DNA of 64,000 bases from an uncultured Clostridia bacterium (GTDB lineage Bacteria; Bacillota; Clostridia; TANB77; CAG-465): NCBI GenBank assembly GCA_934132895.1, contig CAKPAG010000004.1, positions 37,846 through 101,845 of the forward strand, given 5' to 3'. The notes below the pieces were generated by a model. That model saw only the letters and a list, made by a program, of their open reading frames with translations. It was not told the origin of the DNA and made no database searches. The translations under genes were made by a program, and so were the position numbers. Shown piece after piece: positions 2,047 to 62,386 of the stretch; the stretch's first letter is position 1; each line of letters opens with the position of its first letter.

Positions 2047-2796
2047 ATGATAAAAGTACCAACAGCACATAATGAAGCTAAAAAAGGAGATATTGCAAAC
2101 TTAGTAATAATGCCTGGTGATCCTTTAAGAGCAGAATATATAGCTAAAAAATTTTTAAAAGATGCGTTTTGCTATAATAAAGTTAGAAATATGTATGGTT
2201 TTACCGGGATGTATAATGATGTGAGAGTATCCGTTCAAGCAAGTGGAATGGGAATTCCTTCAATGGGAATATATTCAAAAGAATTATACGAAGGTTATGA
2301 TGTTGATTTAATTATACGAGTTGGAAGTGCAGGAACGTTAAATGAAGATATTAATTTAATGGATATTATCATAGCAGAAAATGTAGACTCAGATTCAGAG
2401 TATAACACGCTTATAGGGCTAAATAAGGATACGAAAATAGTACCTACAAGTGAATTATTAGATATTACAAAGAAAATAAGCGAAGAAAATTTAAAATATA
2501 AGAATGATATAAATATTAAATATGGTAAAGTATTTACCTCTGAAATTTTTTATGATTCTAAAGAAAGATTAGAAAAATTAGACAAAGATAACAATATAGC
2601 CTTTGAAATGGAAACTTTTGCACTTTATTCTAATGCAATTTTTGCAAATAAAAAAGCATTAAGTTTACTTACTATTTCAGATCATTTACTAAGAGATGAA
2701 CACTTAACATCTGACCAAAGACAAAATTCTTTTGATAAAATGATAGAAACAGCATTACAGATATGTATTAGATATAACAAAGAAAGGAAAAAATAA
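2047..2796 (+). CDS. deoD: Purine nucleoside phosphorylase, DeoD type
   Basis: 249 aa. N-terminus GDIANLVIMPGDPLRAEYIAKKFL...GFTGMY..SVQASGMGIPS is closely similar to E. coli DeoD. The stop overlaps the scpA start (taATG). Confidence 0.85.
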   Translation: MIKVPTAHNEAKKGDIANLVIMPGDPLRAEYIAKKFLKDAFCYNKVRNMYGFTGMYNDVRVSVQASGMGIPSMGIYSKELYEGYDVDLIIRVGSAGTLNEDINLMDIIIAENVDSDSEYNTLIGLNKDTKIVPTSELLDITKKISEENLKYKNDINIKYGKVFTSEIFYDSKERLEKLDKDNNIAFEMETFALYSNAIFANKKALSLLTISDHLLRDEHLTSDQRQNSFDKMIETALQICIRYNKERKK

Positions 2797-3605
2797 TGAC
2801 TGATATTATTTTAAAAAATAAGCAAAGATTTAAATTTACCTTAGAAAATTTTGAGGGACCTTTAGATTTGTTACTTCATTTGATTGTGAAAAATAAAATG
2901 AATATATTTGATATATCATTAAGTGAACTTACCGATGAATATATAGCATATATAAACGAACTGAATGATAAAAATATAGAAGTGGCAAGTGAATTTGTAG
3001 TAATGGCATCAACTCTTTTAGATATAAAAGCAAGGAAACTGCTTCCTCAAATAACACCAAAAGATGACGAAGAAGAAGAGATAATTACAGAAGAGGATAT
3101 TATAAAACAACTTATAGAATATAAAAAATACAAAGAAATATCTGGAGTTATATCAGAATTATATAGTAAGAATTTTGGAAGCTTTTCTAAGTCTATGGAA
3201 AAAATTAAATTTAAAAAGAAAATTGAATATACAGGGCAAGATTTTAAACCAAATGAAATATTTGATATATATAATGATATAATAAGTAGAAACAAGAATA
3301 AAATAAATAAAAACTCTGAAGAGATTAAAAAAATTGCAATATATGAAAAAATCACTGTAAGAGATAAAGTAAAACAAATAGTAAATTATTTAAATGCAAA
3401 TGAGCAAATGGTGTTTAATGAGATATTTAATCCTGTAAGTTGCAATAATATTGAAGTAGTAACCGCTTTTTTAGGAGCATTAGAGCTTAGTAAATTAAAA
3501 CAAGTAGATATATCTCAAAACTATCTTTTCTCAGACATTAATATAACCAAAAAACAAGATGCAGTAAACGTAAATTTTGATTTAGCATCATTTACAGAAG
3601 AATAA
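2796..3605 (+). CDS. scpA: Segregation and condensation protein A (ScpA kleisin)
   Basis: 269 aa. N-terminal FEGPLDLLLHLI...KMNIFDISLSELTDEY is the ScpA signature. Translationally coupled to deoD. Confidence 0.85.
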   Translation: MTDIILKNKQRFKFTLENFEGPLDLLLHLIVKNKMNIFDISLSELTDEYIAYINELNDKNIEVASEFVVMASTLLDIKARKLLPQITPKDDEEEEIITEEDIIKQLIEYKKYKEISGVISELYSKNFGSFSKSMEKIKFKKKIEYTGQDFKPNEIFDIYNDIISRNKNKINKNSEEIKKIAIYEKITVRDKVKQIVNYLNANEQMVFNEIFNPVSCNNIEVVTAFLGALELSKLKQVDISQNYLFSDINITKKQDAVNVNFDLASFTEE

Positions 3606-3620
3606 AAAAAGGAGTAAACT

Positions 3621-4454
3621 ATGGATAGTTATTTGGAAAGAATAAAATATGAAAAAATAGGCGAATCCAAAAATGCAGATGAAAAACAACTAAACTGGAA
3701 TATAGCTTTTGGTTTGCAAGCAGTTGATAATTTAACTCCTTCAAAGTATATGGTTAAGTTGGCTGAAGAAAATATACTGGGCAAAAAAAGCTATAATAAA
3801 GTTAAAGATGAGATAAATGAATATTATAACGTAGAAAATAATGAGGGAAGTTTAAATAAAAAAGAGGAAGAAGCAGATAAGGTTTCATTACAAATAATGA
3901 AAATATTAAACGATAAGGCTTTTTCTTTTAATTATTTGACATTAAAAAACTACCATAAAAGATTATTTCAAAATATAGATATCGGCATTGCAACAAAATT
4001 TATAGGTGAATTTAGAGACTATAATATAACAAAAAAAGAAGATATTTTACGTGGCGAAACTGTGCAATACGCTGATTTTTCAATGATAGAAGCAAGCCTT
4101 AAATTTGATTTTGAAGAAGAGTCAAAACAAAAATATACTATTATGTCTGATGATGAAAAGATTAATAGATTATGCACTTTTGTTTCAAACATATGGCAGG
4201 TTCATCCGTTTGGAGAAGGAAATACGAGAGTTACTGCAGTATTTATTCAAAAGTATTTAAATAGCAAAGGTTTTAAAGTAAACAATGAACTTTTTAAAGA
4301 TAATTCGTTATATTTTAGAAATGCTTTAGTTAGAGCAAATTATACTAATATATGCCAAGGTGTAGACGAAGATAAAAGGTATTTAAAGTTATTTTTTGAA
4401 AATTTGTTACTAAATAAAAATAATAAATTAGATAATAATGAGTTATACATATAA
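3621..4454 (+). CDS. Fic/DOC family protein with a non-canonical Fic motif
   Basis: 277 aa. The motif HPFGEGNTRVTA differs from the canonical HPFx(D/E)GNGRxxR at two positions (second G to T, final R to A). Sits 16 nt after scpA, in the position normally held by scpB. Confidence 0.7.
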   Translation: MDSYLERIKYEKIGESKNADEKQLNWNIAFGLQAVDNLTPSKYMVKLAEENILGKKSYNKVKDEINEYYNVENNEGSLNKKEEEADKVSLQIMKILNDKAFSFNYLTLKNYHKRLFQNIDIGIATKFIGEFRDYNITKKEDILRGETVQYADFSMIEASLKFDFEEESKQKYTIMSDDEKINRLCTFVSNIWQVHPFGEGNTRVTAVFIQKYLNSKGFKVNNELFKDNSLYFRNALVRANYTNICQGVDEDKRYLKLFFENLLLNKNNKLDNNELYI

Positions 4455-4465
4455 ATCATAGAAAA

Positions 4466-4507
4466 GAAAACTCACGCAAACTATAAAAAAAACGCGTGAG
4501 TTTTTTC
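4466..4507 (+). terminator. Rho-independent terminator after the fic gene
   Basis: AAAACTCACGC ... GCGTGAGTTTT stem followed by a T-run. Confidence 0.6.
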
Positions 4508-4574
4508 TACCTTTATGTGAGTAATTGAAAAAAGCATCAAAAATTCAAAAGTTTTTTCATATTTTTGAAAAAAC

Positions 4575-4603
4575 TTGACTATAATGATAAAAAAGAGTAT
4601 AAT
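4575..4603 (+). promoter_or_regulatory. sigma-A type promoter (TTGACT -17 nt- TATAAT) for the AAA ATPase gene
   Basis: TTGACT at 4575-4580 and TATAAT at 4598-4603, followed by RBS AGGAGG at 4613-4618 and the ATG at 4625. This lies inside the longer TTG-initiated ORF given in the track. Confidence 0.55.
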
Positions 4604-4624
4604 TATTATAGTAGGAGGAATTTT

Positions 4625-5866
4625 ATGGAAAGAATAAATAGAGAAAGTTATTTATCTATATTAAAAAATTTCAAAGACCAACAAATAATAAAGGTTATCA
4701 CAGGAATAAGAAGATGTGGTAAATCAACACTACTCGAAATATTTCAAGATTATTTAAAAGAAAATGGAATAAAAGAAAATCAAATAATATCAATAAATTT
4801 TGAAGATTCAGATTATGAGGAATTGCAAGACAGAAAAAAATTATATGAATATGTAAAAGCAAAATTAGTAAAAGGAAAAAAGACATATGTTTTTTTAGAT
4901 GAAATTCAAAATGTAAATGAATTTGAAAAAACAGTAGATAGTTTGTTTATAAATAAAGATGTAGATTTATACATAACAGGCTCAAATGCATATTTATTAT
5001 CTTCAGAATTAGCGACATTGCTTACAGGAAGATATATAGAAATAAAAATGTTACCACTATCATTTAAAGAATATTTATCAAGTTTTGAAGATAAAACAGA
5101 TTTATCAAGAAAATTTAGAGATTATTTGAGATATAGTTCCTTTCCTCAAGCGGCCCAATTATATAAGATAAATCCAGAAAATATAAATTTGTTTTTAGAT
5201 GGTATATATAATACTGTTTTATTTAAAGATGTAATGCAAAGAAAAGGAATAACGGATAAAAATGTTTTAGAAAGAATTACAAAATATATATATGACAATA
5301 TAGGAAATAGAACAAGTATAAAAAGTATAAGTGATAATATAGAAGGAATAGAAAGAAACTCATCATATAATACAATTTCAAATTATGTAGAAGCATTACT
5401 AGATAGTTATTTAATATTTAAGGCCAATAGGTATGATATTAAAGGAAAAGAATTTCTAAAAACTCAAGAAAAATATTATGCAGTAGATATCGGATTAAGA
5501 TATTATATGTTAGGGCAAGGGTCTGGTAGAGATATGGGGCACATATTAGAAAATGTTGTATACCTTGAACTGTTAAGACGAGGATATGAAGTATATATAG
5601 GAAAATATGATGAGCTAGAAGTAGACTTTGTGGCAAGAAAACCGGAAAATACCATATACTACCAAGTAGCATTAACAACAAGAGGAGAAAATGAAGGGGA
5701 CAATAAAATCTTAGAAAGAGAATTAACTCCTTTGAAAAAGATAAATGATAATTATCCTAAATATATTTTGACTTTGGATGATGATTTAGATGCTGATTTT
5801 GATGGAATAAAAAAGATAAATGTATTGGATTGGTTACTTGAAAAAAATACTAATTTAAGTATATAA
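4625..5866 (+). CDS. AAA+ ATPase (DUF4143 / COG1373 family)
   Basis: P-loop GIRRCGKST and the C-terminal DUF4143-like region. Start moved to the ATG at 4625, which has a consensus RBS, instead of the TTG at 4565 that overlaps the promoter. Confidence 0.75.
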   Translation: MERINRESYLSILKNFKDQQIIKVITGIRRCGKSTLLEIFQDYLKENGIKENQIISINFEDSDYEELQDRKKLYEYVKAKLVKGKKTYVFLDEIQNVNEFEKTVDSLFINKDVDLYITGSNAYLLSSELATLLTGRYIEIKMLPLSFKEYLSSFEDKTDLSRKFRDYLRYSSFPQAAQLYKINPENINLFLDGIYNTVLFKDVMQRKGITDKNVLERITKYIYDNIGNRTSIKSISDNIEGIERNSSYNTISNYVEALLDSYLIFKANRYDIKGKEFLKTQEKYYAVDIGLRYYMLGQGSGRDMGHILENVVYLELLRRGYEVYIGKYDELEVDFVARKPENTIYYQVALTTRGENEGDNKILERELTPLKKINDNYPKYILTLDDDLDADFDGIKKINVLDWLLEKNTNLSI

Positions 5867-5867
5867 T

Positions 5868-5918
5868 AAAAAAGCAAAATATTAATGTATGATATGTACA
5901 GACGTATTTTGCTTTTTT
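5868..5918 (+). terminator. Rho-independent terminator
   Basis: AAAAGCAAAATA ... TATTTTGCTTTTTTT hairpin plus a T-tract. Confidence 0.6.
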
Positions 5919-6119
5919 TCATTTTAATTTTTTATCAGCTTTAATTTTTAAGTTATAGCACCTTGTCAAATATTGTAAGATATAATCTAATAAAGAGAGT
6001 ATTAACATAAACTTCCCAAGTTATAAATATATAAATAATATATCATTATCTATTGTGAAAGTTGGGTGAAAAAAACAGTTATTTTTATGCTATTTATTGA
6101 ATATACATATTTATTGTGA

Positions 6120-8112
<1,993 letters not shown>

Positions 8113-20023: not shown

Positions 20024-22007
20024 ATGGCAAATAAATTAGTAATTGTTGAGTCACCTTCAAAAGCAAAAACAATAAAAAAATATTTGGGAAGTGATTATGA
20101 AGTAATTGCATCACAAGGTCATGTAATAGACTTGCCAGCAAGTAGAATGGCTGTTGATGTAGAACATAACTTTAAACCAGAATATATAACTATGAAGGGA
20201 AAAGCAAAGATAATAAATGAAATAAAAAAACAAGCAAAAGGAAAAGAAAAAATATATCTTGCAACCGACCCCGACCGTGAGGGAGAAGCAATAGCTTGGC
20301 ATTTAAAAAATGTGCTAAATATTCCAGATGATGAAAAGTGTAGAATTACTTTTAATGAAATAACTAAAACAGCAGTTAAAAAAGCTGTTAAAGAGGCAAG
20401 GAACATTGATGAATCATTAGTAGAAGCACAACAAGCAAGAAGAATTTTAGATAGAATAGTGGGATATAAATTATCACCTTTGCTTTGGAAAAAAATAAAA
20501 AAAGGACTTAGTGCAGGGCGTGTTCAATCTGTTGCATTAAAAATAATAGTGGATAGAGAAAAAGAAATAAGAGCATTTAAACCTGAAGAGTATTGGTTGC
20601 TTTCTGCTAAATTGGATAAACAAAATCAAGAGGTTATTGCTAAGTTTTACGGTGATAAAAGTGGAAAAATAGATTTAAAAAATAAAGAGCAAGTGGAAAA
20701 TATTGTATCAAAAATAGAAAATAAAGATTATATAGTAGAAGATATTAAAAAAAGTGAAAGAAAGAAAAATCCGCCACCACCATTTACAACATCTTCTTTG
20801 CAACAAGATGCAGCAAGAAAATTAGGTTTTACTGTTAAAAAAACAATGATGGTTGCTCAAAGACTTTATGAATCAGGATATATAACATATATGAGAACTG
20901 ACTCTACTAGGATTTCTGATGATGCAAGAAAAATGGCAGCTGAATATATAAAATCAACATTTGGCGATAAGTATTATTTAAATAGAGTATTTAAAACTAA
21001 AGATACTGCTCAAGATGCACACGAAGCTATAAGGCCTAGTAATTTGAGTAATAAGGATGAAGTTTTAAATAGTACAAGTAAAGATGAACAAAAATTATAT
21101 ACGTTAATATTAAATAGATTTCTAGCAAGTCAAATGGCAGTGGCAGTATATGATACTACTAAAGTAACACTGAATGTTAATAATTACATATTTAATATTA
21201 ATGGTAGCGTTATAAAATTCGATGGATATATGAAATTATATATCGAGTCTAAAGACGAAAAAAATAAAGAAAACGATGATAATAAAATACTACCAGAGTT
21301 TAGTATAGGAGAAGTGTTAATTCGGTAAAGAATTAATAAAAGAGCAAAAATTTACTGAACCTCCTGCAAGATATACAGAAGCAAGTTTAGTAAAAGTAAT
21401 GGAAGAAAAAGGAATAGGGAGACCAAGTACATATGCTCCAACTATTTCAACTATAATAGATAGATTATATATTGAAAGACACGAAAAACACTTAGTACCA
21501 ACTGAACTTGGTGAGATAGTTAATACCTTAATGGAAAATAATTTTAAAGATATAGTTGATGTTGGTTTTACAGCTGATATGGAACATAAACTTGATATGG
21601 TAGCTGAAAACAAAGAAAATTATATTGAAATGCTAGATGAATTCTATAAACCATTTATAAAAAATCTAACAGAAGTTGAAGATAAGATAAAAAAAGTGGA
21701 AATACCTGATGAAGTATCAGATGAGGTATGTGAACTTTGTGGCAGAAATATGGTTATAAAACAAGGAAGATTTGGAAAATTTTTAGCATGTCCTGGATAT
21801 CCAGAATGTAAAAATGCCAAACCAATTATTCAAACAATTGATGTACCATGTCCAAATTGTGGTGGAAAGATTTTAGTAAAGAAGACTAAAACTAAAAGAA
21901 CTTTTTATGTTTGTGAAAATAACACAAATAAAGAAGATAGTAAGTGTGATTATATTTCTTGGACTAAGCCTAAGAAAGGAAAATCTACTAAAAAGGAAAG
22001 TAAATAA
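20024..22007 (+). CDS. topA: DNA topoisomerase I, reading frame interrupted by a single-base frameshift near 21318-21328
   Basis: The N-terminal 434 aa (Toprim, GYITYMRTDS active-site region) end at 21328. The frame +1 continues from 21321 as FGKELIKEQKFTEPPARYTEASLVKVMEEKGIGRPSTYAP... through Zn ribbons to 22007. Removing one T in TTAATTCGG restores a single protein of about 690 aa. Confidence 0.85.
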
Positions 22008-61411: not shown

Positions 61412-62386
61412 ATGAATAATTGCTGTAATAATCATAACTGTTGTTGCAAAATAATTGGTCCAAAGGGAGAACAAGGCCCTGCGGGACCACAAGGTTCTGC
61501 GGGATCACAAGGCCCTACAGGACCACAAGGCCCTACAGGACCTACTGGTGCAACAGGATTACAAGGAATAAAAGGAGAAAAGGGAGAAGTCGGACCAGTT
61601 GGCCCACAAGGTGAAAAGGGAGAAAGAGGTATACAAGGTCCATCAACCATTAGTGTTGGTGATACTGAAACAGTATCTTCTAACATGGTAGCTGAAGTGA
61701 CAAATGTCGGTACAAAAGAAGATTTAGTATTAAACTTTAAAATACCAAAAGGCGAAAAAGGAGATAAAGGAGATCAGGGAGAAAAAGGTGATGTTGGTCC
61801 AAGAGGCTTACCTGGGGAAATTGGAAGAACGGAACATATTTCAATAGGTGAAACAGAAACTATTGGACCTGGTGAACCGGCTCAAGTTTTAGATGATTTC
61901 GAAAATATGGTACACAACCTTACATTTTATATTCCTAAAGGAGAAAATGGAGGAGGACCTACCTCGTTTAGTGCAATAGTATTTGCTGAATACGATGATA
62001 CAAATGAATCCAAGCCTTTAACAATAAACGAAAAAATATTATTACCAGAAGCAACACCTATATTTAAAGTTCCAAATTTAACAGATATAGATGTTCTAGT
62101 AACTGGAATTTATGAGATAATGCTGTGTGGAAAGATTTCAGGGGTAACTCAGGCTAATGGAGCTAAATTTTTACTTTTGAATAAAACAACAGGAACTGTT
62201 ATAGATAACTTAACGTTTGAGTTAAAAGAAGGAATAACTTCAGACATGACATTTTCAGGAACTACTGTGGTACAAATTTTTGCCCCAGCTTCTTTTGAGG
62301 TAAGAAGTACGATTAGCAATGATCCAACTACTGCTAAAATTGCATTTTATGATATGAGGCTAACAATGAAAAAATACAATGTTTAA
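61412..62386 (+). CDS. Collagen-like triple-helix-repeat exosporium-type glycoprotein (BclA-like)
   Basis: 324 aa. Cys-rich N-terminus MNNCCNNHNCCCK, about 40 G-x-x triplets in two blocks, and a C-terminal beta-rich (C1q/TNF-like) domain. Confidence 0.75.
   Translation: MNNCCNNHNCCCKIIGPKGEQGPAGPQGSAGSQGPTGPQGPTGPTGATGLQGIKGEKGEVGPVGPQGEKGERGIQGPSTISVGDTETVSSNMVAEVTNVGTKEDLVLNFKIPKGEKGDKGDQGEKGDVGPRGLPGEIGRTEHISIGETETIGPGEPAQVLDDFENMVHNLTFYIPKGENGGGPTSFSAIVFAEYDDTNESKPLTINEKILLPEATPIFKVPNLTDIDVLVTGIYEIMLCGKISGVTQANGAKFLLLNKTTGTVIDNLTFELKEGITSDMTFSGTTVVQIFAPASFEVRSTISNDPTTAKIAFYDMRLTMKKYNV

What the first reader, a model, noticed from the sequence alone, without database searches (positions are those of the whole stretch)
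2796..5866. scpA is followed by a Fic protein with a degenerate active-site motif and a DUF4143 ATPase instead of scpB
In Firmicutes scpA and scpB are almost always adjacent and co-translated. Here the ORF 16 nt after scpA encodes a Fic-fold protein with motif HPFGEGNTRVTA, not the canonical HPFx(D/E)GNGRxxR: the second Gly and the final Arg are replaced. This suggests altered or absent AMPylation chemistry. It is followed by a separately promoted AAA+ ATPase. Either scpB has been displaced by an inserted cassette, or this Fic protein is co-expressed with the kleisin.
Basis: partly seen in the sequence, partly recalled or inferred. Interest (0 to 1): 0.5.

Follow-up and report, generated by a model that had tools for sequence, protein, structure and literature searches.

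The report
Accessory Fic2-type toxin gene after scpA
The two genes after scpA are a species-specific insertion of mobile, defence-island-type genes (a Fic2-class Fic enzyme and a common ATPase) in a variable spot before groES, and they did not displace scpB, which is absent from this position in the whole clade.

Summary
scpA (2796-3605) is followed after 16 nt by a 277-aa Fic protein (3621-4454, motif HPFGEGNTRVTA), then by a separately promoted AAA_14/DUF4143 ATPase (4625-5866). The interpretation needs revision.

- **scpB:** in 32 related gut Clostridia genomes, scpB never follows scpA. The usual arrangement is recA-recX-deoD-scpA then groES-groEL, with a variable gap of 97-3625 bp carrying different cargo. 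So the cassette did not displace scpB.
- **The insertion:** Fic plus ATPase occupy this gap only in the window's own species.
- **The motif:** it is not decay. H, F, G, N, T, R and the final A are invariant across homologues. It matches the published class Hxxx[D/E]GNTRxx[not R]. The protein is 43% identical to Campylobacter fetus Fic2, a His-dependent toxin that disturbs ribosome subunit joining.
- **Independence:** the two genes are separate modules. Fic matches PADLOC candidate PDC-S72. The ATPase matches PDC-S01, and its promoter-to-terminator cassette is about 90% DNA-identical to copies in defence islands elsewhere.
- **Co-occurrence:** none of 80 other GNTR-Fic loci carries the ATPase or scpA.

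Co-transcription of Fic with scpA is plausible but looks incidental. Whether scpB lies elsewhere in this clade could not be tested.

The parts
2047..2796 (+). deoD-type purine nucleoside phosphorylase. Its stop overlaps the scpA start, so it is upstream in the same operon.
   Evidence: NCBIfam NF004489 E 6e-79. Conserved upstream of scpA in 25 related genomes.
2796..3605 (+). scpA, the kleisin subunit of SMC-ScpAB condensin. Full length.
   Evidence: PF02616 E 8.7e-31. 57-74% identical orthologues in L001-L025. The central region is as conserved as the ends.
3609..3615 (+). Ribosome-binding site AAAGGAG of the Fic gene. The left edge of the inserted Fic module lies at about 3605.
   Evidence: Sequence. 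DNA similarity to the nearest Fic homologue locus L054 starts at window 3605.
3621..4454 (+). Fic2-type (GNTR-class) Fic enzyme, 277 aa. It matches PADLOC candidate PDC-S72 and is a short form lacking the C-terminal extension of most relatives.
   Evidence: PF02661. PDC-S72 E 2e-85, model positions 15-269 of 377. AF2 pLDDT 90. Foldseek matches to Bep, FicT and VbhT Fic structures. 43% identity to C. fetus Fic2.
3714..3731 (+). L32-Q-A-V-D36-N37, a conserved motif sitting where class II Fic proteins carry [S/T]xxxE[G/N]. Proposed to be a modified inhibitory helix.
   Evidence: G31, Q33, V35 and D36 are invariant in A1. A[FI]GLQxVD[GN] is present in 78 of 80 metagenome homologues. Khater & Mohanty report a 'modified inhibitory helix' for this class. 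The positional equivalence is judged by eye only, with no statistical support.
4203..4238 (+). Active-site motif HPFGEGNTRVTA. The catalytic His195 is kept, the second Gly is Thr, and the last Arg is Ala.
   Evidence: H195, F197, G200, N201, T202, R203 and A206 are invariant in 18 homologues at 56-75% identity. Matches the published class Hxxx[D/E]GNTRxx[!R].
4459..4509 (+). Terminator-like hairpin plus T-run after Fic. Probably the end of the deoD-scpA-fic transcript.
   Evidence: RNA fold -17 kcal/mol, z = -6.9. The simple terminator scan missed it because of its 16-nt loop.
4546..5918 (+). Self-contained ATPase cassette: promoter, ORF and terminator.
   Evidence: 90% DNA identity over exactly this span to L068, and 87% to L069-L071, in unrelated contexts.
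4575..4603 (+). Sigma-70-type promoter TTGACT-17-TATAAT of the ATPase.
   Evidence: 11 of 12 matches, the top site in the region. Total sites in the region are not above shuffles, so this is supportive only.
4625..5866 (+). AAA_14 + DUF4143 ATPase, 413 aa, matching PADLOC candidate PDC-S01. Walker A is GIRRCGKST and Walker B is FLDEIQ.
   Evidence: PF13173 E 8e-36 and PF13635 E 4e-20. PDC-S01 E 1e-154, full length. More than 120 clusters at 86-94% identity.
5868..5918 (+). Terminator-like hairpin after the ATPase.
   Evidence: RNA fold -17.8 kcal/mol, z = -5.1. 14-nt perfect inverted repeat I25.
6020..6176 (+). Ancestral groES control region, marking the right edge of the insertion. It holds the promoter TTGAAT-17-TATAAT (6097-6125) and the CIRCE operator TTAGCACT-N9-GAGTGCTAA (6130-6157).
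   Evidence: Aligns with the scpA-groES spacers of L001, L005, L009 and L010. Promoter.
6177..6458 (+). groES, followed by groEL at 6475-8112.
   Evidence: 62-89% (one 42%) and 70-91% identical orthologues downstream of scpA in 16 related genomes.

Best explanation
The stretch from about 3606 to about 5990 is a species-specific accessory insertion. It sits in a naturally variable spacer between the deoD-scpA operon and groES-groEL, in an uncultured low-GC gut Clostridia lineage related to 'Clostridium sp. CAG:921' and CAG:465. It consists of two unrelated modules.

**Module 1: the Fic gene.** It has no promoter of its own and was placed directly after the scpA stop codon. It is therefore probably transcribed by read-through from deoD-scpA and terminated at the hairpin at 4459-4509 (inferred). 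The protein belongs to the Fic2/GNTR class. It keeps the catalytic His, the metal-binding Glu, and the Asn and Arg of the anion hole. It carries a family-fixed Thr in place of the second Gly and lacks the gamma-phosphate Arg. It also has a fixed LxxxD[N/G] motif where class II Fic proteins have the inhibitory SxxxE[G/N]. By homology to C. fetus Fic2, it is most likely an active, His-dependent protein-modifying toxin. Its chemistry probably differs from standard ATP-dependent AMPylation, and its action slows growth through the translation apparatus (inferred). It may be held in check in cis by its N-terminal helix, because it has no Fic1-type partner here (inferred).

**Module 2: the ATPase.** This is an autonomous, horizontally spreading AAA_14/DUF4143 ATPase (PDC-S01).

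**Role and relation to scpA/scpB.** Both genes belong to families found in defence islands, restriction-modification loci and mobile elements. The most likely role is phage or mobile-element conflict (abortive-infection-like), which has not been tested for either family. Adjacency to scpA is positional, not functional. The lack of scpB next to scpA is an older, clade-wide trait.
For: **Insertion and hotspot**
- 16 related genomes have scpA followed by groES. The gaps are 97-3625 bp and hold different cargo or none. Cargo includes an AAA+/M41 protease, a class II ribonucleotide reductase, a thymidine kinase and small unknown ORFs.
- The groES promoter and CIRCE region are conserved to the right of the insert.
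- None of the 32 relatives has a Fic gene within 10 kb of scpA.
- All 19 contigs that encode the identical Fic protein show the same arrangement as the window.

**scpB**
- scpB is absent after scpA in the clade but present in 12 of 12 outgroup loci.

**Motif is a family signature**
- The motif residues are invariant in alignment A1.
- The class was published in 2015.
- The protein is 43% identical (E 2e-64) to C. fetus Fic2, with matching H184/T191/A195 numbering.
- Fic2 toxicity depends on the His and perturbs ribosome subunit joining.

**Fold**
- AF2 pLDDT is 90. Foldseek matches Fic structures with probability 1.0.

**Module independence**
- The Fic DNA homology (77%) spans 3605-4454. The ATPase homology (87-90%) spans 4546-5918.
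- A promoter and two hairpins separate the modules.
- None of 80 other GNTR-Fic loci has the ATPase or scpA.

**Defence and mobile-element association**
- PADLOC matches: PDC-S72 at E 2e-85 and PDC-S01 at E 1e-154.
- ATPase homologues lie beside HsdR and ThsB_TIR, and beside type I-B CRISPR-Cas.
- Fic homologues lie in ICE-like regions and next to RhuM, HsdS, HipA, Schlafen and recombinases.
Against: - No experiment shows anti-phage activity for PDC-S72 or PDC-S01. They are untested 'guilt-by-embedding' candidates.
- C. fetus Fic2 was toxic only on overexpression in E. coli, and it needs Fic1 as antitoxin. No such partner exists here, so a solo active toxin requires an unproven self-inhibition.
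- The N-terminal helix equivalence has no statistical support.
- Read-through transcription is inferred from sequence only.
- No target-site duplications or terminal repeats mark the insertion.
- The motif invariance seen in the 80 metagenome loci is partly circular, because one of the search patterns was the motif itself.
Confidence: 0.7

Rival explanations
1. The Fic protein is functionally coupled to condensin. It would be co-expressed with ScpA and either modify SMC/ScpA or substitute for the missing ScpB.
For: - The gap is 16 nt, with a good ribosome-binding site and no terminator before the end of Fic.
- The arrangement is fixed in all 19 contigs of the species.
- scpB is not nearby.
Against: - The gene is present at this site in only one of 33 clade species sampled.
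- scpB is equally missing next to scpA in relatives without the Fic gene.
- None of 80 other family loci adjoins scpA.
- The closest homologues sit after lysS/RhuM, between housekeeping genes, or in ICEs.
- The Fic fold is unrelated to ScpB's winged helices.
Confidence: 0.03
2. The Fic protein is a catalytically dead remnant or pseudoenzyme. The changed motif would reflect loss of function.
For: - The second Gly and the gamma-phosphate Arg of the AMPylation motif are missing.
- Khater & Mohanty mention inactivity as a possibility.
Against: - The substitutions are invariant across homologues down to 43% identity, and the catalytic His is always kept.
- C. fetus Fic2, with the same motif, is toxic in a His184-dependent way.
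- The family is very large and well conserved.
Confidence: 0.07
3. Fic and the ATPase form one two-gene system, for example a sensor ATPase with a Fic effector.
For: - They are adjacent on the same strand and were both inserted at the same site.
- One ATPase homologue locus has an HTH-Fic gene about 5 kb away.
Against: - A terminator and a separate promoter lie between them.
- Their DNA-homology blocks and identity levels differ.
- None of 80 GNTR-Fic loci has an ATPase homologue.
- The ATPase contexts lack a GNTR Fic.
- PADLOC models both as single-gene candidates.
Confidence: 0.05
4. The Fic gene is a selfish toxin or a secreted effector with no role in phage defence. It would be a leftover of an integrative or conjugative element, like the C. 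fetus Fic1-Fic2 toxin-antitoxin/T4SS-associated module.
For: - The characterised homologue is described as a TA toxin near T4SS genes.
- Homologues occur in ICE-like regions with ParA/ParB, TraG and integrase, and on Campylobacter and Clostridia plasmids.
Against: - No antitoxin partner, integrase or transfer gene lies near it in the window.
- 75 of 80 family loci are solo.
- The window copy lacks the C-terminal extension that carries the proposed KEKE secretion signal in Fic2.
Confidence: 0.2

Closest known systems
Campylobacter fetus subsp. venerealis Fic2 (Sprenger et al. 2017, PMC5651007)
   Same: - 43% identity over 250 aa, E 2e-64.
- Same core motif class: HPFREGNTRTIA versus HPFGEGNTRVTA.
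- Same N-terminal xxGLxxVDxLxPSxY segment.
- The catalytic His is retained.
- Both are associated with mobile DNA.
   Different: - Fic2 is 306 aa, with a C-terminal KEKE tail. It is encoded 1 bp after a class II Fic1 that neutralises it.
- The window protein is 277 aa, has no Fic partner, and is embedded behind a housekeeping operon.
- Host phylum and niche differ.
Fic motif group Hxxx[D/E]GNTRxx[!R] of Khater & Mohanty 2015 (PMC4454073)
   Same: Exact motif match. The paper also notes a modified inhibitory helix, consistent with LxxxD[N/G] at residues 32-37.
   Different: That paper called it a small group in clade F3. Here at least 8000 database clusters match. No function was assigned there.
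PADLOC phage-defence candidates PDC-S72 (Fic) and PDC-S01 (AAA_14-DUF4143 ATPase)
   Same: Strong HMM matches, E 2e-85 and E 1e-154. Homologues sit in defence or mobile-element contexts.
   Different: - These are untested candidates, not validated systems.
- The window Fic covers only positions 15-269 of the 377-position PDC-S72 model.
Class I FicT toxins and Bartonella Bep/VbhT Fic domains; class II CdFic
   Same: - Best sequence and structure matches in the PDB: 4m16, 4py3, 5jff, 3zc7.
- Whole-chain superposition on class II CdFic 4x2d covers 258 columns, TM 0.58/0.69.
   Different: - Those proteins have the GNGRxxR motif and AMPylate GyrB/ParE or host GTPases.
- Identity is only 15-22%.
- Inhibition in those proteins uses a Glu that is Asp here.
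Canonical scpA-scpB operon of Bacillota
   Same: scpA is intact and full length.
   Different: scpB is not adjacent, either here or in 32 related genomes. scpA is instead fused into a recA-recX-deoD-scpA block upstream of groESL.

Membership tests
Fic/Doc (Fido) superfamily | Fic domain fold and profile match | tested here: met
   PF02661 at 36.6 bits against a cutoff of 24. AF2 model pLDDT 90. Foldseek probability 1.00 to many Fic structures.
Fic/Doc (Fido) superfamily | Core HxFx(D/E)GN(G/K)R with catalytic His | tested here: inconclusive
   H, F, E, G, N and R are present. Position 8 is T rather than G or K.
Canonical AMPylating Fic (HxFx[D/E]GNGRxxR) | Second Gly of the anion hole | tested here: not met
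   Thr202, invariant in the family.
Canonical AMPylating Fic (HxFx[D/E]GNGRxxR) | Final Arg, which binds the ATP gamma-phosphate and pairs with the inhibitory Glu | tested here: not met
   Ala206, invariant.
Canonical AMPylating Fic (HxFx[D/E]GNGRxxR) | Inhibitory motif [S/T]xxxE[G/N], in cis or on a partner | tested here: not met
   No such motif anywhere in the protein, and no second Fic or small antitoxin-like partner in the window. LQAVDN occupies the class II position.
Fic2 / GNTR class | Motif Hxxx[D/E]GNTRxx[not R] | tested here: met
   HPFGEGNTRVTA. Class definition in PMC4454073.
Fic2 / GNTR class | Full-length homology to C. fetus Fic2 | tested here: met
   43% identity, E 2e-64, 250 aligned residues including the N-terminal segment.
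Fic2 / GNTR class | His-dependent toxicity and effect on ribosome subunit joining | not testable with these tools
   Known only for C. fetus Fic2.
Fic1-Fic2 toxin-antitoxin module | Adjacent class II Fic1 antitoxin gene | tested here: not met
   There is a single Fic motif in the 64-kb window. Only 5 of 80 family loci have a GNGR Fic nearby.
PADLOC PDC-S72 | HMM match | tested here: met
   E 2e-85, model positions 15-269 of 377. The C-terminal third is absent.
PADLOC PDC-S72 / PDC-S01 | Demonstrated anti-phage activity | not testable with these tools
   Literature describes them as untested candidates. No paper in the library mentions PDC-S72.
PADLOC PDC-S01 (AAA_14 + DUF4143) | Full-length HMM match with Walker A and B | tested here: met
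   E 1e-154, model positions 9-409 of 412. GKST and DEIQ motifs present.
PADLOC PDC-S01 (AAA_14 + DUF4143) | PD-(D/E)xK nuclease-like C-terminal domain | tested here: inconclusive
   PF13635 E 4e-20. E-V-D-F is conserved, but the following Q-V-[A/S/C] has no Lys in the 6 sequences aligned.
scpAB operon | scpB immediately downstream of scpA | tested here: not met
   No ScpB in the window or within 10 kb of scpA in L001-L032. 12 of 12 outgroup loci are positive.

The most novel reading that the evidence does not exclude
The more interesting anomaly may be the clade rather than the cassette. A whole lineage of small-genome gut Clostridia has uncoupled scpA from scpB. If ScpB were truly absent genome-wide, SMC-ScpA would work without its usual third subunit.

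Separately, solo Fic2-type enzymes (GNTR motif with an LxxxD helix) could be a widespread single-gene immunity module using a non-AMPylation chemistry on the translation apparatus.
Probability: 0.12. Interest if true: 0.6.

Novelty: new member of a known kind. Interest (0 to 1): 0.25.

Why it matters
- **For annotation:** this is a caution. A 'degenerate' catalytic motif can be the fixed signature of a large, active subfamily. A gene sitting where an operon partner is expected can be an incidental insertion.
- **For biology:** the locus offers a natural, single-copy, partner-less Fic2-type gene and a PDC-S01 ATPase side by side. Either could be cloned to test two abundant but unvalidated defence candidates.
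- **For condensin research:** the clade-wide separation of scpA from scpB is worth a genome-wide check.

Tried and rejected
- **N-terminal 76 residues:** I looked for homology to VbhA/FicA antitoxins or to the Fic1 inhibitory helix. Pfam gave nothing. A profile against the PDB gave only a chance uS4 hit. hhalign against Fic1 aligned only the core motif. The inhibitory-helix reading therefore remains a by-eye and literature inference.
- **Insertion scars:** I searched for direct or inverted repeats flanking 3606-5990. Only AT-rich chance matches and the two terminator stems appeared.
- **Terminator scan:** the simple scan found none, because both hairpins have long loops. Folding was needed.
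- **scpB beyond the held loci:** The protein-search tools list only the top hits without taxonomy, so a clade-specific ScpB search was judged unworkable and was not run.
- **PDC-S72 details:** I searched the supplements of the PADLOC preprint and found no entry by that name.
- **Phage-borne origin:** only 2 weak hits in 50,697 phage records, so this was rejected.

Full report
**Observation.** The window is very AT-rich (27.6% GC). It comes from a spore-forming Clostridia lineage: SpoVAC and SpoVAD ORFs lie at 12.6-14.1 kb. On the + strand it carries the following genes:
- recA (404-1447)
- recX (1460-1909)
- a DeoD-type nucleoside phosphorylase (2047-2796)
- scpA (2796-3605, PF02616 E 8.7e-31)
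- a 277-aa Fic protein (3621-4454, PF02661 E 8e-9)
- an AAA_14 + DUF4143 ATPase (best start ATG 4625, ending at 5866)
- groES-groEL (6177-8112)

The Fic ORF begins 15-16 nt after the scpA stop, behind an AAAGGAG ribosome-binding site. It contains HPFGEGNTRVTA at residues 195-206. This is the only Fic-type motif in the window. No ScpB is encoded anywhere in the 64 kb.

**Transcription units.** No hairpin lies between scpA and fic. A strong hairpin followed by a T-run comes after fic (4459-4509, -17 kcal/mol, z -6.9). Another follows the ATPase (5868-5918, -17.8 kcal/mol). The best promoter-like site in the region, TTGACT-17-TATAAT at 4575-4603, precedes the ATPase. groES keeps its own promoter and a CIRCE operator at 6097-6157. 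The likely units are therefore deoD-scpA-fic, then the ATPase, then groESL. This is inferred from sequence only.

**Synteny: was scpB displaced?** A scan of one genome per species with the ScpA protein returned 47 loci.
- **The clade.** Thirty-two loci (L001-L032) are uncultured gut Clostridia, including Clostridium sp. CAG:921 and CAG:465. They share recA-recX-(deoD)-scpA with the window, with ScpA 40-74% identical.
- **No scpB in the clade.** None of the 32 has a ScpB match within the held flanks. This holds for tblastn and for an HMM search.
- **Outgroup control.** All 12 informative outgroup loci (Lachnospiraceae, Oscillospiraceae, other Clostridia, Convivina) have scpB immediately after scpA. 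They also serve as positive controls for the probes.
- **What follows scpA instead.** In 16 clade genomes groES-groEL follows scpA, after a spacer of 97, 213, 217, 244, 395, 396, 580, 584, 598, 787, 1222, 1234, 2379, 2400, 2522 or 3625 bp.
- **Spacer cargo.** The longer spacers hold unrelated cargo: an AAA+/Peptidase_M41 protein (L014, L024, L025), a class II ribonucleotide reductase (L021), a thymidine kinase (L007) and small unknown reverse ORFs.
- **No Fic in relatives.** None of the 32 has a Fic gene in the flanks.

The scpA-groES spacer is therefore a variable site, and the uncoupling of scpA from scpB predates this insertion. All 19 public contigs that encode the identical Fic protein show the window's arrangement, as do the contigs encoding the identical ScpA. 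The insertion thus appears fixed in this species. The region from about 6020 to groES aligns with the relatives' spacers, which places the right edge of the insert between 5918 and about 6020.

**The Fic protein.**
- **Family size.** It has at least 8000 database relatives, many 56-75% identical.
- **Motif conservation.** In an 18-sequence alignment H195, F197, G200, N201, T202, R203 and A206 are invariant. An N-terminal block W26, A29, G31, Q33, V35, D36, L38, P40, S41 and Y43 is also invariant. The Thr and Ala substitutions are fixed features under selection, not decay.
- **Published motif class.** Khater & Mohanty (2015, PMC4454073) list Hxxx[D/E]GNTRxx[!R] as one of five Fic/Doc motif groups. 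They remark that this group has a modified inhibitory helix and may have a different activity.
- **Characterised relative.** Plasmid searches led to Campylobacter fetus. The plasmid protein at L073:3950-4870 carries HPFREGNTRTIA, with H184, T191 and A195 exactly as published for Fic2. It follows a class II Fic1 gene (S31/E35) that overlaps it by 1 bp. It is 43% identical to the window protein over 250 residues, E 2e-64.
- **What is known about Fic2.** Sprenger et al. (2017, PMC5651007) showed that Fic2 is toxic and filament-inducing in E. coli despite the motif. They also showed that H184A abolishes this, that Fic1 binds and neutralises Fic2, and that Fic2 lowers 70S and raises free ribosomal subunits.
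- **Structure.** The AF2 model is confident (pLDDT 90.2). Its nearest solved structures are Bep, EcFicT and VbhT Fic domains, at 15-22% identity. The whole chain also superposes on class II CdFic (4x2d, 258 columns).
- **Possible inhibitory helix.** Residues L32-QAV-D36-N37 sit where Fic1 and CdFic have S31-xxx-E35-G/N. This equivalence could not be confirmed statistically.

**Context of the family.** The contexts of close and more distant homologues vary:
- The closest homologue (75% identical) lies after lysS and a RhuM gene.
- Another lies between housekeeping genes.
- Two lie in ICE-like regions, one with ParA/ParB/MuF_C/DUF3849 and one with TraG, topoisomerase, an integrase and a second Fic.

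Among 80 further metagenome loci (GC 21-59%):
- 75 are solo and 5 have a canonical GNGR Fic nearby.
- None has an ATPase homologue or scpA.
- The immediate neighbours are heterogeneous but have a defence or mobile-element flavour: HsdS in 6, Fic in 4, Bro-N in 4, RhuM in 3, plus HipA, ThsB_TIR, Schlafen/AlbA_2, reverse transcriptase, HsdR and recombinases.
- Most relatives are 350-380 aa. The window copy is a short form.
- One search pattern for these loci was the motif itself, so their motif invariance is partly circular.

**PADLOC matches.** PADLOC-DB matches the Fic to PDC-S72 (E 2e-85) and the ATPase to PDC-S01 (E 1e-154). PDCs are 'phage defence candidates' derived by guilt-by-embedding, and they are explicitly untested. 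PDC-S01 is reported as one of the most abundant candidates. It is described as an ATPase fused to a PD-(D/E)xK-superfamily domain.

**The ATPase module.** More than 120 clusters are 86-94% identical to it. This exceeds the conservation of ScpA among clade species. DNA identity of 87-90% covers exactly 4546-5918, that is promoter, ORF and terminator. The matching copies sit beside HsdR, an AAA_15/21 ATPase and ThsB_TIR (L068), or beside a type I-B CRISPR-Cas locus (L069-L071), in equally AT-rich genomes. This indicates a discrete cassette that spreads horizontally. The Fic module's homology (77%) spans 3605-4454 and has a different history.

**Conclusion.** The finding is real but ordinary in kind. 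Two independent accessory genes of defence-island type have landed in a variable spacer behind scpA in one species. The Fic belongs to a known, experimentally touched class (Fic2/GNTR), and the ATPase belongs to a very common candidate family. The proposed links to condensin are not supported. What remains open is the biochemistry and biological role of solo Fic2-type enzymes, and where scpB is in this clade, or whether it exists there at all. The conserved central region of ScpA weakly suggests that a partner still exists.

Noticed in passing
L001-L032 (scpA loci of related genomes) versus L034-L047: A whole lineage of uncultured low-GC gut Clostridia has scpA in a recA-recX-deoD-scpA block with no scpB within 10 kb. 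Every outgroup locus has scpA-scpB adjacent. Whether scpB is elsewhere or lost is unknown.
   Followed up: partly
window 21300-21400 (topA, ORFs 20024-21328 and 21399-22007): Topoisomerase I is split into two ORFs by an apparent frameshift just before the conserved TEPPARYTEASLV motif. This could be an assembly error or a real disruption of an essential gene.
   Followed up: partly
window 4546-5918; L068 5921-7295; L069-L071: The ATPase cassette (promoter to terminator) is 87-90% DNA-identical to copies in other AT-rich genomes, where it sits in defence islands (Type I R-M/ThsB_TIR; type I-B CRISPR-Cas). This looks like recent horizontal spread of a unit with no obvious mobility gene or terminal repeats.
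   Followed up: partly
window 5600-5680 (ATPase residues about 330-350): In the DUF4143 (PD-(D/E)xK-like) region, E-V-D-F is conserved, but the following Q-V-[A/S/C]-L lacks the expected Lys in all six sequences aligned. The nuclease motif may be non-canonical in this subfamily.
   Followed up: no
L014 10949-12973, L024 6474-8492, L025 11061-13079, L021 11206-13797, L007 11182-11826: The same scpA-groES spacer holds other cargo in relatives: a soluble AAA+/Peptidase_M41 (FtsH-like) protein with a Clp-N-like start, a class II ribonucleotide reductase with a TSCPD domain, and a thymidine kinase.
   Followed up: partly
L074-L153 (metagenome GNTR-Fic loci): Most family members are 350-380 aa, with a C-terminal extension of about 100 aa that the window protein lacks. 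The PDC-S72 model is 377 positions long. The extension's nature was not examined.
   Followed up: no
L054 4750-5472, and 3 of the neighbours in A4: Virulence_RhuM (PF13310) genes recur immediately next to GNTR-type Fic genes in unrelated contigs.
   Followed up: no
window 61412-62386: Collagen-like GXX-repeat protein with a C-terminal globular domain, resembling a BclA-type exosporium protein. This is consistent with a spore-forming host.
   Followed up: no
L003 3857-4072; L006 2930-4128: In two relatives, scpA is followed by small membrane ORFs and a 212-aa protein that look like a holin/lysin-type set. This is another kind of cargo at the same site.
   Followed up: no
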